A DNA stretch of 64,000 bases from Escherichia phage HY01, in sequence record NC_027349.1; one strand, given 5' to 3'. Positions 11,876-60,698 of this stretch are shown here, piece after piece. The notes under the pieces are model-generated. The model did not search any database. It had not been told where the DNA came from and saw only the letters and a list, made by a program, of their open reading frames with translations. Every line of letters begins with the position of its first letter. The first letter of the stretch is position 1. Made by a program: the position numbers and the translations under genes.

Positions 11876-11997
11876 ATTTTTCTCACGGACGGTTAACTAC
11901 TTATATTATATACTATATCATTTTTACTTCAGCTTGTAAACAACTTTATGAAAAATGCTTTAAAACTTTCATGGTATAATGAATCTAAGTCCTTCCA

Positions 11998-12600
11998 TTA
12001 TAGATTAAATCCTTCAAAATCAAGAGTATAGATAGTGTATGTTGAATACTTTTTATATTCATATCTATCCGCAATTCTAAATACACTTCCAGCTGGTATC
12101 ATTACTTCTTGTTCATCTGAAACTAATTCCATATTACGATAGCGATGGCTATCTGGAAATTTAAAACTCGGACTATATTCTTTACAACGTAGAGCTTTTA
12201 TAGCATACTCCTGAAAATTAAATACCATAGGAGCTTTGAATTCAAAAATAACTTGCGTGTTGTATTCTAATCCAGAAGCAAAATGCAGTGCTATATTTTT
12301 ATCATATGAAGCTGATACTACTTTATCAAATGTAATAATATCAATTCCTTGATTTAATACCTGCTTAGTCTCAACTGGAACACCTCTCCAAAGAGGTTTA
12401 TCGTTTGGAACCAAACGAGATTTGATTATTTCATTTAACCAAGAGTGGTCGTCTGGCTTATTAGTAATACAATGAATTAAAAGTTCAATTTCGGATAAAT
12501 TAAATCCTTCGGAAAGTAATTCTTCACGAATAGAAGCACGCACCGATGCATCCATTGATTTGATTTTAAAATCTTTTAATTGCATTGCTGAATATTTCAT
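11998..12600 (-). CDS. modA: ADP-ribosyltransferase ModA
   Basis: 200 aa with R-S-E ART motifs (LWRG ... QEVMIPAGS). Confidence 0.8.
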   Translation of the reverse strand: MKYSAMQLKDFKIKSMDASVRASIREELLSEGFNLSEIELLIHCITNKPDDHSWLNEIIKSRLVPNDKPLWRGVPVETKQVLNQGIDIITFDKVVSASYDKNIALHFASGLEYNTQVIFEFKAPMVFNFQEYAIKALRCKEYSPSFKFPDSHRYRNMELVSDEQEVMIPAGSVFRIADRYEYKKYSTYTIYTLDFEGFNL

Positions 12601-12604
12601 TCAA

Positions 12605-13231
12605 CTACCTCAATATCATACACTTTAAATGTTCCAAATGAATCGTGTAATTTTTCTTTTGAAATGAAGTTATTTTATACTTTCCAATTGGAATCATCCA
12701 TTCTTGTTCACGCACAATCATCATTAAGTTATCAGTACGTTCTGAATCTAATCCATCAGTATCTTCATATGTATACTTAAACTCAGTATTAGGAGAAGAA
12801 AGTATAATATCGCTGATATGGTCAGAGTAATTAAAAGCTTTATCAGTTTTTAAGCGAAGTACTATTTCAGTGAAATATTCAGCATAAGAAAAAGAACACG
12901 CTGTATGCAAACTAGTAGTAAATGAATCTACTCTGTTCGTTGAAAACACTTCTCCAACTTGTAAATCTTTAATGAGTTCTTTTGTCGATTTTGATATACC
13001 ACGATATAGCTGATAAGGCGATTTAGTTAAATGCTTTTTAACGATTTTATTCAACTGCTGATGAAGAGCTTCATTCTTTTTGGCTTCCATACATTGCCAA
13101 AGAATTGACTGTTCAAAGTCCGTAAATTTTTCACAGACCTTTTTATACATATCATATTGAAAATCGACACTTTCAGCTTTTATAGATAACTGTTCAACAT
13201 CTGCGAGATTAATAATCATGATAGCCTCCAT
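12605..13231 (-). CDS. modB: ADP-ribosyltransferase ModB
   Basis: 208 aa with ART motifs (LYRGIS ... EQEWMIPIG); paralogue of modA. Confidence 0.8.
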   Translation of the reverse strand: MEAIMIINLADVEQLSIKAESVDFQYDMYKKVCEKFTDFEQSILWQCMEAKKNEALHQQLNKIVKKHLTKSPYQLYRGISKSTKELIKDLQVGEVFSTNRVDSFTTSLHTACSFSYAEYFTEIVLRLKTDKAFNYSDHISDIILSSPNTEFKYTYEDTDGLDSERTDNLMMIVREQEWMIPIGKYKITSFQKKNYTIHLEHLKCMILR

Positions 13232-13286
13232 ATACTTCAGAAGCTATCATATCATTGTTAGGAAGGAAAGTAAACAACTTTTTGAA

Positions 13287-13469
13287 TTATTTTGCCCAAG
13301 GAGCCCAGGGCGGAGGGTCAAGATGGTATGAAGCTAGTTCTTCTAGAAGAGCATCTGGGGCTTCAATTCCATAATTCTGTAATACTATACGGTACTCTTT
13401 CTTATAATCACTAGAATCATTCTGGATATTCGTAGAATGATTATCTTCTAACATCTCAAATAAATCCAT
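13287..13469 (-). CDS. hypothetical small protein
   Basis: 60-aa ORF. Confidence 0.4.
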   Translation of the reverse strand: MDLFEMLEDNHSTNIQNDSSDYKKEYRIVLQNYGIEAPDALLEELASYHLDPPPWAPWAK

Positions 13470-18057: not shown

Positions 18058-18414
18058 TTAACCTCTATTCATAAAAGCATTAAAAATTTGGTCATCAATA
18101 GATGGAATAACAACCTTTTCGGCATCATTTAACAAATCATTAATTTCATCAGATAGCATAACACGTGTACCTTTATTTCCTGTAATTGTTACTGCACAAT
18201 TACGAACATTTTCTTTATCGAATTTTAGGTTAATATTTTCGTAGTGAAAATCCTTTAATGCCGAATATATTTTTAAAATGAAATTGTCTTTTACTACAAT
18301 AAACCCAACCTCGCTATTAAAACGTGGTTCATGGAAACTGTAATAAACCTTTTCATCTATAAAATCGTATGAAATTTTTTCCATTTTTAAATATGAAAAT
18401 TCAGAACTATACAT
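18058..18414 (-). CDS. hypothetical protein (61.2 position; AdfA-like by synteny only)
   Basis: 118-aa ORF between 61.1 and spackle. Confidence 0.4.
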   Translation of the reverse strand: MYSSEFSYLKMEKISYDFIDEKVYYSFHEPRFNSEVGFIVVKDNFILKIYSALKDFHYENINLKFDKENVRNCAVTITGNKGTRVMLSDEINDLLNDAEKVVIPSIDDQIFNAFMNRG

Positions 18415-51615: not shown

Positions 51616-52101
51616 TTATTCCATTTCTACTATATGCATGTTCTTTTTGCTATCAAAATATATGTTTTTAACTATTAACTCAGAATTAATTGGCAGTAAA
51701 AACTCTCTTTCATAATCTACCATACAAAGATTATCATAAAGCTTGTTAAGCTTATCATCGTCAGTTTGGCCAGATTCTTCAATTGCGATTAAATTTTCTA
51801 AAATGTCAATCATGGCAGTCGAATAGTCGAAAACGTTTGCATTTTTTAACACTACTAAAACATTAGTCATATAGCGTTCTGCCGCAAACGTTTCAGCTAT
51901 ATGAGACTCACTGCTAAAGGAAGTTATTCTTTTAAATTTGATTCTCCTATTAACTTCAAACTTATAAGATAGCACTTCCTCTATTGTAAGTCCTCTAAAA
52001 AGTATGTCTTTAATCTCAAGTTTGTCTTTAATGTAATCATTAACACGCTTATGATTAAAATCACTAATTTTGTTGCCAAGGCATTGCATTAAAATATGCA
52101 T
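51616..52101 (-). CDS. hypothetical protein
   Basis: 161-aa ORF followed by a GC hairpin terminator. Confidence 0.4.
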   Translation of the reverse strand: MHILMQCLGNKISDFNHKRVNDYIKDKLEIKDILFRGLTIEEVLSYKFEVNRRIKFKRITSFSSESHIAETFAAERYMTNVLVVLKNANVFDYSTAMIDILENLIAIEESGQTDDDKLNKLYDNLCMVDYEREFLLPINSELIVKNIYFDSKKNMHIVEME

Positions 52102-56725: not shown

Positions 56726-57307
56726 CTAACCGAGCTTTTTAGTTAATTCATTCCAATGTTTTCTGCACAAAGAAACATAAATTTCATCACCAATACAGAT
56801 TTGATTACCTTCTTTAACTGGTGTTCCATCTTCCATTAATCGAGCCGTCATAATCGCTTTTTTACCGCAATGACAAACTGCCTTTAGTTCAATAAGTTTA
56901 TCTGCAATCGCCAAAAGTTCTTTAGAACCTTCAAATAATTTTCCAGCGAAATCAGTCCTTAGACCATAAGCCATAACAGGAACATTGTATGTATCGACAA
57001 TTCGGCTTAATTGATGCACCTGTTCAGTTTTTAAAAACTGAGCTTCATCTACAAATACGCAATGAATATCTTTTTGTGCTTCAGCCCATTTATAGAACTC
57101 AAAAATATCCATATCATCCGTAATAATATTCGCTTCCTGCTTAATTCCAATGCGAGAAACGACTTCACAGACAGAATCGCGAGTATCAATAGCAGGCTTA
57201 AGAACTAATACACCCATTCCGCGTTCTTTATAATTATGCGCAGCAGTCAAAAGAGAAGCAGATTTTCCAGCATTCATTGCTGCATAAGTAAAAATTAAAC
57301 TCGCCAT
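56726..57307 (-). CDS. tk: thymidine kinase
   Basis: 193 aa with P-loop AAMNAGKS and a zinc-binding Cys cluster. Confidence 0.9.
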   Translation of the reverse strand: MASLIFTYAAMNAGKSASLLTAAHNYKERGMGVLVLKPAIDTRDSVCEVVSRIGIKQEANIITDDMDIFEFYKWAEAQKDIHCVFVDEAQFLKTEQVHQLSRIVDTYNVPVMAYGLRTDFAGKLFEGSKELLAIADKLIELKAVCHCGKKAIMTARLMEDGTPVKEGNQICIGDEIYVSLCRKHWNELTKKLG

Positions 57308-57316
57308 ATCACCTTC

Positions 57317-57502
57317 TTAAAGCGTATTCACATAAGCTATTAATTCGTTTTCTTTCTTATCAAACCGGTCAGCAAATTCTTCTTGTTGTTCGGGAGATAG
57401 CGGGCCGTATTCATCATAAAAGGTGTTTGCTTCTGCATTCTCATCTAGAAGTTCATGGATAAGCTCAAACAATTTATCTTTTTGTTCTTTACTCAGACTC
57501 AT
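57317..57502 (-). CDS. tk.1: hypothetical small acidic protein
   Basis: 61-aa ORF. Confidence 0.4.
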   Translation of the reverse strand: MSLSKEQKDKLFELIHELLDENAEANTFYDEYGPLSPEQQEEFADRFDKKENELIAYVNTL

Positions 57503-57668
57503 ATATTAATTTCCAGGAGTTTTAAAATAATTCGCTTTTGCTTAAATATTTCCGTAGTTAAATGGTCAGTATCTTTTTGACCGATTCCAACGGCAAAACC
57601 TTTATTAACAGCGAGTTCAATTAAATTATCAAGCTCACGTAACACTTCATATTGTAACTCAAAATTAT

Positions 57669-57896
57669 TCATTTTGGTTTACCTTCTTTAACGAAATCAG
57701 GATAAGGATAAAATCCTGAATAAAATCCTTCACCTTTATGATTGATGCATCCTTTATTAGAACAATAGCACCAATAGTCGAAATCACAGGCCATTTCATC
57801 ATTACATAAAGCAAAAACAACAGGCCATTTACACTTTTCACAATGGGCATTTTTAAGAATACTAGTTTGGCTCATAACCATGTAACCTTTAAGCAA
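57669..57896 (-). CDS. small Cys-rich protein (possible metal-binding)
   Basis: 75 aa with 8 Cys (CEKCKWP...CNDEMACDFDYWCYCSNKGC). Confidence 0.4.
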   Translation of the reverse strand: MLKGYMVMSQTSILKNAHCEKCKWPVVFALCNDEMACDFDYWCYCSNKGCINHKGEGFYSGFYPYPDFVKEGKPK

Positions 57897-58084
57897 TATT
57901 CTTCTACATGTTGTTTACGACCTTTCCTATCAATGAAGGTATATTCAACGAATGTTCCAATATAGTCTTTATCTACATCATGAGGACTATTAATTGGGCA
58001 TTTAGTACGGCAAATGCGTTTCCATTGACGAATAATTTCCACTTTGTTTTTAGGATCAAACGGATGCGGGCAATGTACTTTCAT
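57872..58084 (-). CDS. small Cys/His-rich protein
   Basis: 70-aa ORF. Confidence 0.35.
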   Translation of the reverse strand: MKVHCPHPFDPKNKVEIIRQWKRICRTKCPINSPHDVDKDYIGTFVEYTFIDRKGRKQHVEEYCLKVTWL

Positions 58085-58535
58085 AATCCACCACTATTAA
58101 ATCAATATCAGGAGTAAACATGTCGATTAATTTAGAAACCTTATCCCAATCACCGCCAGCAATACCACAACCTATGCGTGGAATGTAAATTACTGGTTTA
58201 AACAGAAGGGTCTCTGCCTGTAGATTTAATTCTATCATGCAGTTTACTAAAGCACCATAATCAAGATTAGGACCCGGTTCGTATTGCGTATACAGGTTAT
58301 AGCATATACCAAATCCCGTAGGACTATGTTTAAAAACAATAGACATATCGCCTAATTTATCGCGAGAACCGTACTCGGTAGTAGTTTTATCTATTTCTAA
58401 AATTTTAGGATAGGCCCTCGCTAATTGACCCGCTACACCTGAACCCATAGTATGAAAGCAGTTGCACCCGTGCGCAATAATATTACCTTGAAGAAATAGG
58501 GCGACAATATCGCCCTTGATATATTTTACAATCAT
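58056..58535 (-). CDS. macro-domain protein (ADP-ribose binding / ADP-ribosylhydrolase-like)
   Basis: 159 aa with macro-like motifs GDIVALFLQGNIIAHGCNCFHTMGSGVAG and IPRIGCGIAGGDW. Confidence 0.55.
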   Translation of the reverse strand: MIVKYIKGDIVALFLQGNIIAHGCNCFHTMGSGVAGQLARAYPKILEIDKTTTEYGSRDKLGDMSIVFKHSPTGFGICYNLYTQYEPGPNLDYGALVNCMIELNLQAETLLFKPVIYIPRIGCGIAGGDWDKVSKLIDMFTPDIDLIVVDYESTLPASV

Positions 58536-58873
58536 CTAGTACTCAATCCTCGATTATAAGAATCTACCAAACGGTCAACCATTGAATGACAAGCGGCTTT
58601 ATCTTTCTCCTCCGCAACTGAACATTCTAAGGTATTCCACTTTTTAGCATATCGTTTTAATAAAGTATCGTTCTTGTATCTACTTGATTTATCTCTTTCT
58701 CCGTCTTTATATGCATATATTAATTTCTGCGCAAATTCAGCTTGACATGCTTTATTTTTCCCACAATAATCCGCGGCAGTACGGTTTACATACTCTCTAA
58801 TTTCAGTGTATGATGTATTTGCTAACGCAGAAAATGAAATTAATCCTACACATAAAACCAAAATTTTAGTCAT
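58532..58873 (-). CDS. secreted Cys-containing protein
   Basis: 113 aa with N-terminal signal peptide MTKILVLCVGLISFSALA. Confidence 0.45.
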   Translation of the reverse strand: MTKILVLCVGLISFSALANTSYTEIREYVNRTAADYCGKNKACQAEFAQKLIYAYKDGERDKSSRYKNDTLLKRYAKKWNTLECSVAEEKDKAACHSMVDRLVDSYNRGLSTR

Positions 58874-59411
58874 TTACTATTTCCAACAGTTTATTATTTT
58901 TAAGGTAGTTAGCCTTTTCTAGGACTTCAGAAGCATATTTAGAACCTGCTTTAACATTCCATCCCGAATTATAAGAGGATATTGCCTTTCTTATATCGCC
59001 CTTATGTATATTTAACCAATAAGAAAGTTCAATGTACGCCCAGGAAGCTGAATTGGACCGTTTATTCAACATTCTTTTTATTTCAGCATCGGTCATATTA
59101 TAACCAAGTTCCTTAACTCTTGCTCGCATGGTCGGCAAATAATTTTGGAACATTCCATAGGCATGATGCTTTGGTTTAGATTTTAAATTAACTCCGGCAG
59201 AGCTTTCTTGCCATAAAATAGCAGCCATTATATGACCTAATCCACTCTTGTGGATATTTTTGTGTGTTTTATATTTTCCATCCTTAGAAAATTGTTCCCC
59301 GAATTGATATGCGTAACGCATGTTATCGAGTTGGACATTACTGAAAGTATGCTCGGAGCTATGTGCCATCATTGAAATGGCCAATAGACCAGCGAGTAGT
59401 GCTTTTCTCAT
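58866..59411 (-). CDS. secreted lytic transglycosylase-like protein (SLT domain)
   Basis: 181 aa with signal peptide and SLT motifs (LWQESS, AYGMFQ, SYNSG). Confidence 0.6.
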   Translation of the reverse strand: MRKALLAGLLAISMMAHSSEHTFSNVQLDNMRYAYQFGEQFSKDGKYKTHKNIHKSGLGHIMAAILWQESSAGVNLKSKPKHHAYGMFQNYLPTMRARVKELGYNMTDAEIKRMLNKRSNSASWAYIELSYWLNIHKGDIRKAISSYNSGWNVKAGSKYASEVLEKANYLKNNKLLEIVND

Positions 59412-59418
59412 GCTTACC

Positions 59419-59880
59419 TCATTGAGTTTTAATTACTGCTTTAGAAGCCTTTCCTGGTAAACGACGACTGTTAATAATTGCCATCCTGCACTGAAGCGAC
59501 GGGTCTTTGAACTTCGCATTAGGTTTACAAACTGTAAATCCAAGCCAAAGATTTCCATCTGTGATTTCTAAACGCCCAGGACGATATTCAACCCCATCAA
59601 TAAAATCCTCGTCAATGTCAGGACGCGGAGGCATACTCAGGAATTCATTAACTTCTAAAACATGGTCTTTTATTTTGTGGAATAATTCAAAAACATATGT
59701 CTCATCAATCTCCCGTTGAATTGCACGATCAAGAAGATGTTGAGAATATTTTAGATGAAACGATGAGACCCCTGCTGCTTTTGATGCCTCACGAATCTCA
59801 TTGTTAATTTGACGAAACTCCGACTCAAAGTGACGACGGAGCTTATTTCGACGGATAAAAACTTCTGTGTTGATAGTCAT
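59419..59880 (-). CDS. regB: RegB endoribonuclease
   Basis: 153 aa; matches T4 RegB as recalled. Confidence 0.88.
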   Translation of the reverse strand: MTINTEVFIRRNKLRRHFESEFRQINNEIREASKAAGVSSFHLKYSQHLLDRAIQREIDETYVFELFHKIKDHVLEVNEFLSMPPRPDIDEDFIDGVEYRPGRLEITDGNLWLGFTVCKPNAKFKDPSLQCRMAIINSRRLPGKASKAVIKTQ

Positions 59881-59939
59881 GTTATTCTCCTCTTAACTGA
59901 TAGAAAAATTATACCACAGTCAAGAGGAAAAGTAAACAG

Positions 59940-60260
59940 TTATTCTTTAAATCTAATCAATTTATTCATAGACTTTGAAACTTCTGCACGAACCTCATGT
60001 AGGTTTTTGAGCTGTTCAAGACGCTGCTCATAGTAAGCAATTTCATCTTCTTCGAGACAGTCCTGTGAATCTTCTTTAAGATAACGTGCATAGTCCTGGA
60101 AAGCTTTACGGACTACTTCCTGGAAGTCATCAAGACTTTGAATTTTCTTAGGAGCAACAGATACACGACGAGGGGCAGTATAATACTCATAACCAAACCC
60201 TACGCTTAATTGAGCCATTAATATTTTTCCTCTGGTTGGAACACAGCACGACAAGCCCAC
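59940..60260 (-). CDS. vs.3: hypothetical protein
   Basis: 106-aa ORF. Confidence 0.4.
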
Positions 60261-60484
60261 ATACTGGCTTCTTTGAGTTTCGTTTTAGCAATAGTTAACT
60301 GATCGAGGCTTTCAGCATAATTCTTTGCGAATTCACAGTCTTCACAATTATCCAGTGCTTCCCAGAATTCATCATATAAAGCATCAAAGATAAGTCCTAA
60401 ACGAACTTCAGCGTCTTTGATAGCATTCACTTTACCGATTTTCTCTTCAGTGTGCGGCTTATAACCTTTAATGTCTTCAATCAT
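60218..60484 (-). CDS. hypothetical acidic protein (vs.4 position; Acb2-like by synteny only)
   Basis: 88-aa ORF two genes upstream of regB. Confidence 0.4.
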
Positions 60485-60698
60485 ATTCTACTTCCTCACC
60501 TGTTCCCAAATCATATTCAACTAAACGAATAGGCTCATGAATGCCATATCCTTGAACAGAAATTTCTGTCGTAGGATAAATTCCATTAATATCACCCATG
60601 TTCCACGCTTCATTAAATTGCTGTTCGCCTGAATTACTAAACCACTCGGCGAAAGCATTTAGCACATCTTTAGAACCTTCAATAATTATCTTTGCCAT
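60477..60698 (-). CDS. hypothetical small acidic protein
   Basis: 73-aa ORF. Confidence 0.4.
   Translation of the reverse strand: MAKIIIEGSKDVLNAFAEWFSNSGEQQFNEAWNMGDINGIYPTTEISVQGYGIHEPIRLVEYDLGTGEEVEYD

What the first reader, a model, noticed from the sequence alone, without database searches (positions are those of the whole stretch)
58056..58535. Macro-domain protein in a genome that also encodes ADP-ribosyltransferases
The 159-aa product has the two glycine-rich macro-domain motifs. Macro domains bind or hydrolyse ADP-ribose adducts, and the same genome encodes ModA and ModB (11998-13231). A phage macro domain could tune the phage's own ADP-ribosylation programme or reverse host ADP-ribosylation defences (DarT-type DNA modification or protein ARTs).
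Basis: partly seen in the sequence, partly recalled or inferred. Interest (0 to 1): 0.6.

Follow-up and report, generated by a model that had tools for sequence, protein, structure and literature searches.

The report
Phage T4 Tk.4/AdfM macrodomain ortholog
This gene is the T4-type phage gene tk.4, a small macrodomain enzyme whose phage T4 version was recently shown to protect the phage from the bacterial DarTG2 defence, which blocks phage DNA by tagging it with ADP-ribose; the finding is real but already known.

Summary

The A1pp/macro domain of tk.4 was noted in 2006. A November 2025 preprint (HIDEN-SEQ) found tk.4 as the single T4 gene needed on DarTG2 hosts, confirmed this with a clean knockout, and named it adfM. 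A PhiKZ macrodomain, also named AdfM, removes thymidine-linked ADP-ribose from DNA in vitro. The suggested link to ModA/ModB has no support.

Two details are added here. This allele is only 58% identical to T4 Tk.4, because the C-terminal two-thirds is a diverged cassette in 94-100% identical flanks. The whole Tk.4 family also has an invariant Gln where DarG and TARG1 have the catalytic Lys, as in SCO6735. The protein has no DarG toxin-binding domain.

Novelty: already known. Interest: low.

The parts
58056..58535 (-). tk.4 / adfM orthologue: a stand-alone 159-aa macrodomain protein of the ALC1/TARG1/DarG class
58428..58445 (-). First glycine-rich loop, G31-S-G-V-A-G36 (phosphate/ribose-binding loop 1 of the macro fold)
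   Evidence: Coordinates. G33 and A35 are invariant in 93 homologues. It aligns with MGAGIA of TARG1 and MGAGLA of PhiKZ AdfM.
58461..58463 (-). Asn25, the predicted active-site asparagine
   Evidence: Invariant in 93 of 93 homologues. It aligns with N23 of PhiKZ gp104/AdfM in both hhalign and MAFFT. An N23A mutation reduces de-ADP-ribosylation by PhiKZ AdfM, and DarG N22 is an active-site residue (PMC13309987).
58284..58286 (-). Gln84, at the position of the catalytic Lys of TARG1 (K84) and DarG (K80); Gln-type as in SCO6735 (Q85) and Bt_1257
   Evidence: Invariant in 93 of 93 homologues. It aligns with TARG1 K84 and with the Gln of Bt_1257 NMIGQHG in the profile-HMM and MAFFT alignments. SCO6735 Q85 is the structural equivalent of those lysines, and Q85A abolishes T-ADPr-DNA hydrolysis (PMC9411070).
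58152..58175 (-). Second glycine-rich loop, I121-G-C-G-I-A-G-G128; Ala126 occupies the position of TARG1 Asp125
   Evidence: Coordinates and alignment. G122 and G124 are invariant. A126 occurs in 85 of 93 homologues and Gly in 8, T4-type alleles among them (T4 reads GAGIGKG).
58532..58535 (-). ATGA overlap of the vs stop codon and the tk.4 start codon (probable translational coupling within the leftward regB-vs.1-vs-tk.4-tk.3 gene string)
   Evidence: Read directly from the sequence. T4 has the same arrangement. No promoter-like site lies within vs or vs.1 immediately upstream of tk.4; the nearest on the minus strand are at 58921-58893 (in vs.1), 59254-59227 (in vs.1) and 59936-59908 (upstream of regB). 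Site counts were below the shuffle expectation.
58051..58397 (-). Diverged allele cassette (codons ~47-159): 43-67% nucleotide identity to T4, inside flanks that are 94-100% identical
   Evidence: Sliding 90-nt identity between the window and T4. Protein identities: Tk.4 57%, against Tk.3 89%, Vs 96%, Vs.1 99% and RegB 99%.

Best explanation
The gene is the orthologue of phage T4 tk.4, recently renamed adfM (anti-DarT factor, macrodomain).

Proposed mechanism:
1. The gene is expressed as part of the leftward regB-vs.1-vs-tk.4 gene string. In T4 this is a pre-replicative region.
2. When the host carries a DarTG2 toxin-antitoxin defence, infection releases DarT2. DarT2 uses NAD+ to attach ADP-ribose to thymidine in single-stranded phage DNA at TNTC-type motifs, which blocks replication.
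3. The 17-kDa macrodomain holds the ADP-ribose between its two glycine-rich loops (G31-G36 and G122-G128).
4. It hydrolyses the ribose-thymine bond. This releases ADP-ribose and restores normal DNA, so the phage escapes the defence.

The protein acts as an orphan, antitoxin-like enzyme. It has only the macrodomain, lacks DarG's C-terminal DarT-binding domain, and is not next to a toxin gene. The chemistry is probably SCO6735-like (Gln84, water-mediated) and not Lys-dependent as in DarG and TARG1.

Shown here: the ORF, the fold, the macrodomain class, synteny and homology with T4 tk.4, and conservation of the active-site residues.

Shown by others for homologues: the anti-DarTG2 phenotype of T4 tk.4; thymidine-ADPr-DNA hydrolysis by PhiKZ AdfM, SCO6735, DarG and TARG1.

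Inferred: that this 58%-identical allele has the same activity, the expression time, and the catalytic role of Gln84.
For: Orthology:
- The position between vs and tk.3 is the same as in T4.
- Full-length identity to T4 Tk.4 is 58%, with E = 1e-70.
- Every column that is invariant across 93 homologues (H22, G23, N25, C26, G33, A35, D49, N80, Y82, Q84, P119, G122, G124, W130) is also kept in T4 Tk.4.
- In the second loop this allele (GCGIAGG) matches the family consensus better than T4's does (GAGIGKG).

Function of the orthologue:
- tk.4 was the single significant hit on a DarTG2 host, and a clean knockout sensitised T4 (bioRxiv 10.1101/2025.11.20.689424).

Macrodomain class:
- The best NCBIfam and PADLOC hits are the macrodomain part of DarG, for both this allele and T4's.
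- The family profile hits only this class in the PDB at E < 1e-3.

Chemistry:
- SCO6735, DarG and TARG1 all reverse DarT thymidine-ADPr. SCO6735 does so with Gln85 in place of the lysine, and Q85A is inactive (PMC9411070).
- PhiKZ AdfM removes T-ADPr from an oligonucleotide, and its N23A mutant is impaired (PMC13309987). N23 aligns with N25 here.
Against: - This allele itself has not been tested. It is only 58% identical to the tested T4 protein, and only about 34% identical over the last 35 aligned residues.
- The T4 evidence is genetic and comes from a preprint. Enzymatic removal of ADP-ribose by T4 AdfM was described there only as 'likely'.
- DarG's catalytic lysine is absent (Gln84). TARG1's Asp125 is Ala126.
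- The long 'mobile loop' described for the SCO6735/Bt_1257 subclass is 6 residues shorter here.
- The protein is acidic (pI 5.0), whereas SCO6735 is described as having a highly electropositive DNA-binding surface.
- By sequence alone, Poa1p (an ADP-ribose-1''-phosphate phosphatase) is about as close as DarG.
Confidence: 0.75

Rival explanations
1. Small-molecule ADP-ribose metabolite processing. The protein would be a Poa1p-like ADP-ribose-1''-phosphate phosphatase (the 'phosphatase' of current annotations). Alternatively it would degrade soluble ADPr-derived immune signals or toxins, such as Thoeris cyclic ADPR isomers or ADPr-1''P from RES/MbcT-type toxins.
For: - PHROG 335 and RefSeq name the gene 'phosphatase'.
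- Iyer et al. [quoted passage not shown]
Against: - The 'phosphatase' name is inherited from the old A1pp domain name, not from any assay.
- The genetic screen in T4 gave a DarTG2-specific phenotype.
- Appr-1''-p arises from Tpt1-type tRNA splicing. From my own knowledge, not checked here, T4 RNA repair (Pnkp/Rnl1) does not use that route.
- Many macrodomains show weak Appr1p phosphatase activity in vitro without it being their biological role (my own knowledge).
Confidence: 0.07
2. Tuning of the phage's own ADP-ribosylation programme. The macrodomain would erase ADP-ribose, or RNA chains linked through ADP-ribose, that Alt, ModA or ModB place on host proteins.
For: - The same genome encodes ModA and ModB and a third ModA/B-like paralogue at 51616..52101.
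- SCO6735 and TARG1 also hydrolyse some protein-linked ADP-ribose.
Against: - ModB modifies arginine, and that modification is reversed by ARH1. TARG1 and MacroD-type macrodomains act on acidic residues (PMC8883491).
- tk.4 is about 45 kb from modA/modB and is not co-located with any ART gene.
- Homologues occur in 2,788 phage records across many genera. Whether those phages carry ModA/B genes was not checked.
- T4 tk.4 insertions were depleted specifically on DarTG2 hosts.
Confidence: 0.03
3. Non-catalytic neutralisation. The protein would protect mainly by binding DarT2 (interaction-inhibition), or by binding and shielding ADP-ribosylated DNA, with little or no hydrolysis.
For: - The catalytic Lys of DarG and TARG1 is missing.
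- Catalytically dead SCO6735, DarG and TARG1 still inhibit DarT in vitro, SCO6735 most strongly.
- The strong allele divergence in a conserved genomic context would fit co-evolution with a protein partner.
Against: - The Gln at this position is itself essential for hydrolysis in SCO6735, and it is invariant in 93 of 93 family members, as are N25 and the loop glycines. That pattern points to conserved catalysis.
- DarG's dedicated toxin-binding C-terminal domain is absent, since the protein ends at residue 159.
- PhiKZ AdfM acts enzymatically.
Confidence: 0.07
4. A hydrolase aimed at a different host ADP-ribosylation, with DarT2 reversal a side activity or absent in this allele. Candidate targets are RNA ADP-ribosylation (CmdTAC-like systems), another DNA base, or Glu/Asp-linked protein ADP-ribose.
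For: - This allele differs from the tested T4 allele in 42% of residues, mostly in the C-terminal two-thirds that carries the second substrate loop.
- TARG1-class enzymes are broad in substrate.
- The authors of the AdfN paper expect further ADP-ribosylating defences to be countered by such factors.
Against: - All family-invariant active-site positions are shared by the two alleles.
- There is no positive evidence for another substrate.
- Thymidine-ADPr reversal is described as a unifying function of this macrodomain class (section heading).
Confidence: 0.08

Closest known systems
Phage T4 Tk.4 = AdfM (anti-DarT factor, macrodomain; NP_049723)
   Same: Same genomic slot between vs and tk.3. 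Same length class (159 vs 155 aa). 58% identical over the full length. Identical N-terminus. All family-invariant residues are shared.
   Different: The C-terminal two-thirds is a diverged cassette (43-67% nucleotide identity). The second loop reads GCGIAGG here and GAGIGKG in T4. This protein is 4 residues longer at the C-terminus and overlaps tk.3 by 29 nt, against 4 nt in T4. This allele has not been tested.
PhiKZ gp104 AdfM (chimallivirus nuclear macrodomain)
   Same: A stand-alone phage macrodomain with the same proposed job, removal of DarT2 thymidine-ADPr from DNA. hhalign probability is 96% with E = 3.9e-9. N23 aligns with N25.
   Different: Only 22% identical. PhiKZ AdfM has Lys (K78) at the catalytic position, where this protein has Gln84. 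In PhiKZ the protein is imported into the phage nucleus and expressed late. T4-like phages have no nucleus.
DarG antitoxin of DarTG2 (T. aquaticus, M. tuberculosis, Thermosipho)
   Different: Only the N-terminal ~145 positions of the 329-338-position DarG profiles are matched. There is no C-terminal DarT-binding domain and no adjacent darT. Catalytic Lys80 is replaced by Gln. NCBIfam scores 27.7 bits against a cut-off of 250.
SCO6735 (Streptomyces coelicolor) and Bt_1257 (Bacteroides) orphan macrodomains
   Different: They are cellular and housekeeping or protective in role. Their 'mobile loop' is 6 residues longer. About 26-29% identity. SCO6735 has an electropositive surface, whereas this protein has pI 5.0.
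Human TARG1 (OARD1/C6orf130)
   Same: Top Foldseek hit (E = 4.7e-10, TM 0.72-0.83). Same class, and it also reverses DarT thymidine-ADPr.
   Different: The TARG1 catalytic dyad K84/D125 corresponds to Q84/A126 here. About 20% identity.
Yeast Poa1p (ADP-ribose-1''-phosphate phosphatase)
   Different: It is a eukaryotic tRNA-splicing by-product enzyme with a small-molecule substrate. No such pathway was identified in this phage.
AdfN (T4 gp30.3, NADAR) against DarTG1
   Same: Same logic: a phage carries an orphan, antitoxin-like glycohydrolase that cleans ADP-ribose off its own DNA.
   Different: Unrelated fold (NADAR). It acts on guanine-ADPr made by DarT1, not on thymidine-ADPr made by DarT2. 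The gene lies outside this window.

Membership tests
Macro domain superfamily (Pfam PF01661) | A sequence match above the curated threshold, covering the whole domain | tested here: met
   32 bits against a cut-off of 22; profile positions 2-117 of 118.
Macro domain superfamily (Pfam PF01661) | An alpha/beta/alpha fold with two glycine-rich loops lining the ADP-ribose cleft | tested here: met
Macro domain superfamily (Pfam PF01661) | Binding of ADP-ribose | not testable with these tools
   This needs ITC, a thermal shift assay or a co-crystal structure.
T4 Tk.4 / AdfM family | Full-length homology to T4 Tk.4 | tested here: met
   58% identity over 155 aa, E = 1e-70, no gaps.
T4 Tk.4 / AdfM family | Conserved genomic position (regB-vs.1-vs-tk.4-tk.3-...-tk) | tested here: met
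   The neighbours are 89-99% identical to those of T4.
T4 Tk.4 / AdfM family | Protection of the phage against DarTG2 | not testable with these tools
   Shown only for the T4 allele.
ALC1/TARG1/DarG-like class of macrodomains | Closer in structure and sequence to TARG1, DarG and SCO6735 than to MacroD-type or PARG-type macrodomains | tested here: met
DarG antitoxin (NCBIfam NF048014, PADLOC DarG) | Catalytic lysine (Lys80 in T. aquaticus DarG) | tested here: not met
   Gln84 occupies this position and is invariant in 93 of 93 homologues. The equivalence follows PMC9411070.
DarG antitoxin (NCBIfam NF048014, PADLOC DarG) | C-terminal DarT-binding domain (full length about 330-370 aa) | tested here: not met
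   The protein is 159 aa. Only positions 2-142 of 338 and 3-144 of 329 in the two profiles are matched. The score is 27.7 bits against a cut-off of 250.
DarG antitoxin (NCBIfam NF048014, PADLOC DarG) | Encoded next to its toxin gene darT | tested here: not met
   The neighbours are vs and tk.3 (DUF7202).
SCO6735 / Bt_1257 subclass | Gln in place of the catalytic Lys | tested here: met
   Q84 aligns with the Gln of Bt_1257 NMIGQHG. SCO6735 Q85 is described.
SCO6735 / Bt_1257 subclass | Extended 'mobile loop' after the Gln | tested here: not met
   Bt_1257 carries a 6-residue insertion relative to the Tk.4 family profile. The loop is named as characteristic of the subclass.
MacroD-type (YmdB, MacroD1/2, Af1521; 'O-acetyl-ADP-ribose deacetylase / RNase III regulator' annotations) | A match to the MacroD/YmdB models, and structural proximity to them | tested here: not met
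Poa1p-type ADP-ribose-1''-phosphate phosphatase | Phosphatase activity on Appr-1''-p | not testable with these tools
   Only similarity was measured. The annotation 'phosphatase' derives from the old domain name.

The most novel reading that the evidence does not exclude
Two tk.4 allele families circulate in Tequatrovirus genomes: this one, and the T4/T2/RB32 type at about 58% identity. They may not be functionally equivalent. The swapped C-terminal cassette could retune the enzyme towards different DarT2 variants through direct toxin binding, or towards another ADP-ribose adduct on RNA or a different base.

Separately, the T4-type AdfM family, with its invariant Gln, may descend from orphan SCO6735/Bt_1257-like bacterial 'genome-protector' macrodomains and not from the DarG antitoxin. 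If so, phages acquired anti-DarT2 activity at least twice by different chemistry: Gln-type in T4-like phages and Lys-type in PhiKZ-like phages.
Probability: 0.15. Interest if true: 0.4.

Novelty: already known. Interest (0 to 1): 0.15.

Why it matters
DarTG systems are a widespread bacterial anti-phage defence. Knowing which phage genes defeat them helps to predict host range, for example when choosing phages for therapy against E. coli O157:H7, the recorded host of the matching phage PEC04.

For this gene the main point has already been made for T4. What this window adds is modest:
- A very common second allele of adfM exists. It is closer to the family consensus than T4's allele and has never been tested.
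- The T4-type family uses a glutamine where DarG has its catalytic lysine.
- Public annotations of the gene ('phosphatase', 'RNase III inhibitor', 'hypothetical protein') are outdated and could be replaced.

Tried and rejected
- Single-sequence AlphaFold2 gave an unusable model (pLDDT 34.5). It was repeated with a 93-sequence alignment.
- The promoter/terminator scan of 57200-60600 found fewer promoter-like sites than shuffled sequence (9 against 12.4 +/- 2.7). It gives no evidence for a dedicated tk.4 promoter.
- The one 'terminator-like' hairpin lies inside the coding region. The surrounding RNA does not fold significantly better than shuffles (z = -1.33).
- The pairwise phmmer alignment to Bt_1257 mis-registered the catalytic Gln by 6 residues. 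The profile alignment corrected this.
- hhalign against PhiKZ gp104 places K78 two residues from Q84, and MAFFT places it one residue away, both in a low-confidence stretch. That equivalence is therefore inferred through TARG1 and SCO6735, not shown directly.
- The closest named bacterial homologue (Pelagimonas, 40% identity) has no DarT-like or other toxin neighbour. A recent origin from a TA operon is not supported, though only one locus was examined.
- The annotations 'O-acetyl-ADP-ribose deacetylase / regulator of RNase III' (YmdB-type) were rejected on score and structure.
- The literature search for 'AdfM' alone was swamped by journal abbreviations and added nothing.
- A search for 'tk.4' also returned a 2026 preprint that calls T2 tk.4 a 'putative thymidine kinase'. 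That is a mislabel taken from the gene name, not evidence.

Full report
**1. Observation**

Its start codon overlaps the stop codon of the upstream gene in an ATGA (58532-58535, read).

The product matches Pfam Macro (PF01661) over essentially the whole domain, at 32 bits against a curated cut-off of 22. Both glycine-rich loops are present: G31-S-G-V-A-G36 (nt 58428-58445) and I121-G-C-G-I-A-G-G128 (nt 58152-58175).

The genomic statement is also right. ORF 11998..12600 is 97.5% identical to T4 ModA. ORF 12605..13231 is 94.7% identical to T4 ModB over residues 1-189.

**2. Where the window comes from and which gene this is**

The 3-kb stretch around the gene (57000-60000) and the modA/modB stretch (11900-13300) are both 100% identical to Escherichia phage PEC04 (KR233165, host E. 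coli O157:H7). The 3-kb stretch is also 95-99% identical to 416 other phage records, listed mostly as Escherichia, Shigella, Enterobacteria and Yersinia phages.

In the T4 reference the gene order is regB, vs.1, vs, tk.4, tk.3, tk.2, tk.1, tk, all leftward. The window has the same order, and the 159-aa ORF sits in the tk.4 slot. The neighbours were identified by Pfam: RegB, an SLT domain for Vs.1, and DUF7202 for Tk.3.

**3. What is already known about tk.4**

- In 2006, Nolan et al. reported that tk.4 orthologues match the A1pp (Appr-1''-p processing = macro) domain (PMC1524935). RefSeq T4 carries 'phosphatase; contains A1pp phosphatase motif', and PHROG 335 says 'phosphatase'.
- Iyer et al. 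2022 showed that macro domains are the most widespread ADPr-processing domains in viruses and occur in 41% of myoviruses (PMC9503650).
- The HIDEN-SEQ preprint (bioRxiv 10.1101/2025.11.20.689424, Nov 2025) infected a DarTG2-expressing host with a T4 transposon library. [quoted passage not shown]
- Independently, a chimallivirus macrodomain (PhiKZ gp104), also named AdfM, was shown to remove thymidine-linked ADP-ribose from an oligonucleotide. It rescues cells from DarT2 and protects PhiKZ and PhiPA3 from DarTG2. Its N23A mutant is impaired (PMC13309987).
- The parallel case for DarTG1 is AdfN, the NADAR protein gp30.3 of T4 (PMC11825919).

**4. Which kind of macrodomain it is**

A profile built from the family hits only the ALC1/TARG1/DarG-like class among solved structures at E < 1e-3:

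| Structure | Profile E-value |
|---|---|
| Bt_1257 | 7e-19 |
| TARG1 | 3e-16 |
| SCO6735 | 1.4e-15 |
| Poa1p | 1.6e-14 |
| M. tuberculosis DarG | 1.3e-11 |
| T. aquaticus DarG | 6e-10 |
| Thermosipho DarG | 8e-7 |

The best NCBIfam and PADLOC models are both DarG, for this protein and for T4 Tk.4. Only the macrodomain part of those models is matched, and the scores are far below the family cut-off (27.7 against 250 bits). The protein is therefore not a DarG. It lacks the C-terminal DarT-binding domain, it has no adjacent toxin gene, and, as described next, it lacks the catalytic lysine.

**5. Active site**

In the profile-HMM alignment and in an independent MAFFT L-INS-i alignment, Gln84 falls on TARG1 Lys84 and on the Gln of Bt_1257 (NMIGQHG). 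Ala126 falls on TARG1 Asp125.

Hlousek-Kasun et al. showed by structural superposition that SCO6735 Gln85 occupies the position of TARG1 Lys84 and DarG Lys80. They also showed that Q85A abolishes hydrolysis of thymidine-ADPr DNA, and that SCO6735, DarG and TARG1 all reverse DarT modification. Bt_1257 is 54% identical to SCO6735 (PMC9411070).

Gln84 is invariant in all 93 aligned family members, as is Asn25. Asn25 aligns with PhiKZ AdfM N23 in both hhalign and MAFFT. The register of PhiKZ K78 relative to Gln84 is off by one or two residues in those alignments, so that equivalence is indirect.

The Tk.4 family is therefore a Gln-type member of the class, like SCO6735. It lacks the 6-residue longer 'mobile loop' of SCO6735 and Bt_1257, and it is acidic (pI 5.0).

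**6. The allele**

The protein is only 58% identical to T4 Tk.4, while the neighbouring proteins are much closer:

| Protein | Identity to T4 |
|---|---|
| Tk.3 | 89% |
| Vs | 96% |
| Vs.1 | 99% |
| RegB | 99% |
| Tk | 99% |

Nucleotide identity to T4 is 94-100% in the flanks and 81-94% in the first ~45 codons. It drops to 43-67% from 58051 to 58397.

Among phage records, 311 carry this allele at >= 90% identity. T4, T2 and RB32 carry the ~58% type. Intermediates at 73-82% occur in phage vb_EcoM-VR5 and in metagenome-derived sequences.

All family-invariant residues are shared by both alleles. In the second loop this allele is the consensus form: A126 occurs in 85 of 93 sequences, and T4's Gly in 8 of 93. 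That makes conserved function the most economical assumption, but this allele has not been tested.

The one bacterial homologue whose genomic context was examined (Pelagimonas, 40% identity) is an orphan gene with no toxin next to it.

**7. Mechanism and rivals**

Best explanation (confidence about 0.75): this is an orphan antitoxin-like glycohydrolase. It removes the ADP-ribose that host DarT2 puts on thymidines of single-stranded phage DNA, using a Gln/water mechanism.

Rivals:
- (a) A Poa1p-like ADPr-1''-phosphate phosphatase, or a degrader of soluble ADPr signals. This rests on similarity and an inherited name, plus the general argument of Iyer et al..
- (b) An eraser of the phage's own Alt/ModA/ModB marks. 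This is chemically unlikely, because ModB marks arginine and the mark is reversed by ARH1, while TARG1-type macrodomains act on acidic residues. It is also not suggested by the T4 screen.
- (c) Stoichiometric inhibition of DarT2. This is possible as a contribution, since dead SCO6735 inhibits DarT. The invariant catalytic-site residues argue for catalysis.
- (d) A different ADP-ribosylated target for this allele. There is no positive evidence.

**8. Verdict**

Novelty is 'already known', both as a domain annotation (2006) and as a function (2025-2026). Interest is low. The residual open points are the untested common second allele and the Gln-type chemistry of the T4-type family.

Noticed in passing
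window 51616..52101 (-): A third ModA/ModB-like ADP-ribosyltransferase paralogue (161 aa) lies between the nrdC.10-like and nrdC.11-like genes. It is 29.6% identical to T4 ModB over 142 aa and matches PHROG 832 'RNA polymerase ADP-ribosylase' with E = 2e-23. R (FRG), S-x-S (SFS) and E-x-E (ERE) motifs are visible by eye. No close copy (>=90% identical) turned up in T4: only 42 phage records carry one, including PEC04, SV76 and Citrobacter phage CF1, and all other matches are below 60%. Its target is unknown.
   Followed up: partly
window ~12653-12666, within modB (12605..13231, -): modB has a 1-nt deletion relative to T4 (TTCTATTTC becomes TTCATTTC). This shifts the frame for the last ~20 residues and ends the ORF 5 nt before the modA ATG, instead of overlapping it. 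The 98.8%-identical phage 132 keeps the T4-like 4-nt overlap. The change is therefore specific to this genome (PEC04) and may be a sequencing error or a real C-terminal variant.
   Followed up: partly
window 57308..57896 (-): The tk.1/tk.2 segment is replaced relative to T4 (30% and 15% protein identity). An extra 75-aa Cys-rich ORF (57669..57896, PHROG 2306, unknown function) is present. This is a second mosaic patch immediately downstream of tk.4 and tk.3.
   Followed up: partly
window 18061..18405 (-): The homologue of T4 gp61.2 (the AdfA anti-DarT1 factor family) is very divergent. tblastn finds only 33% identity over the C-terminal 113 residues. A second anti-DarT locus in this genome therefore also differs strongly from T4.
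   Followed up: no
window 58498..58516 (inside tk.4, codons 7-13): A perfect 8-bp GC-rich hairpin (AGGGCGATATTGTCGCCCT on the mRNA strand) lies 17-35 nt after the tk.4 start codon. It is conserved base for base in T4 tk.4, within the only part of the gene that stays ~94% identical at the nucleotide level. The local fold is not significantly more stable than shuffles (z = -1.33), so its meaning is unclear.
   Followed up: partly
window 58056..58084: tk.4 overlaps the start of tk.3 by 29 nt here, against a 4-nt ATGA overlap in T4. The cause is the 4-residue longer and diverged C-terminus of this allele.
   Followed up: no
annotation of tk.4 in public records and papers: The same gene is variously labelled 'phosphatase', 'RNase III inhibitor', 'O-acetyl-ADP-ribose deacetylase', 'macro domain protein' or 'hypothetical protein'. 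One 2026 preprint calls it a 'putative thymidine kinase'. None of these labels reflects the AdfM assignment.
   Followed up: yes
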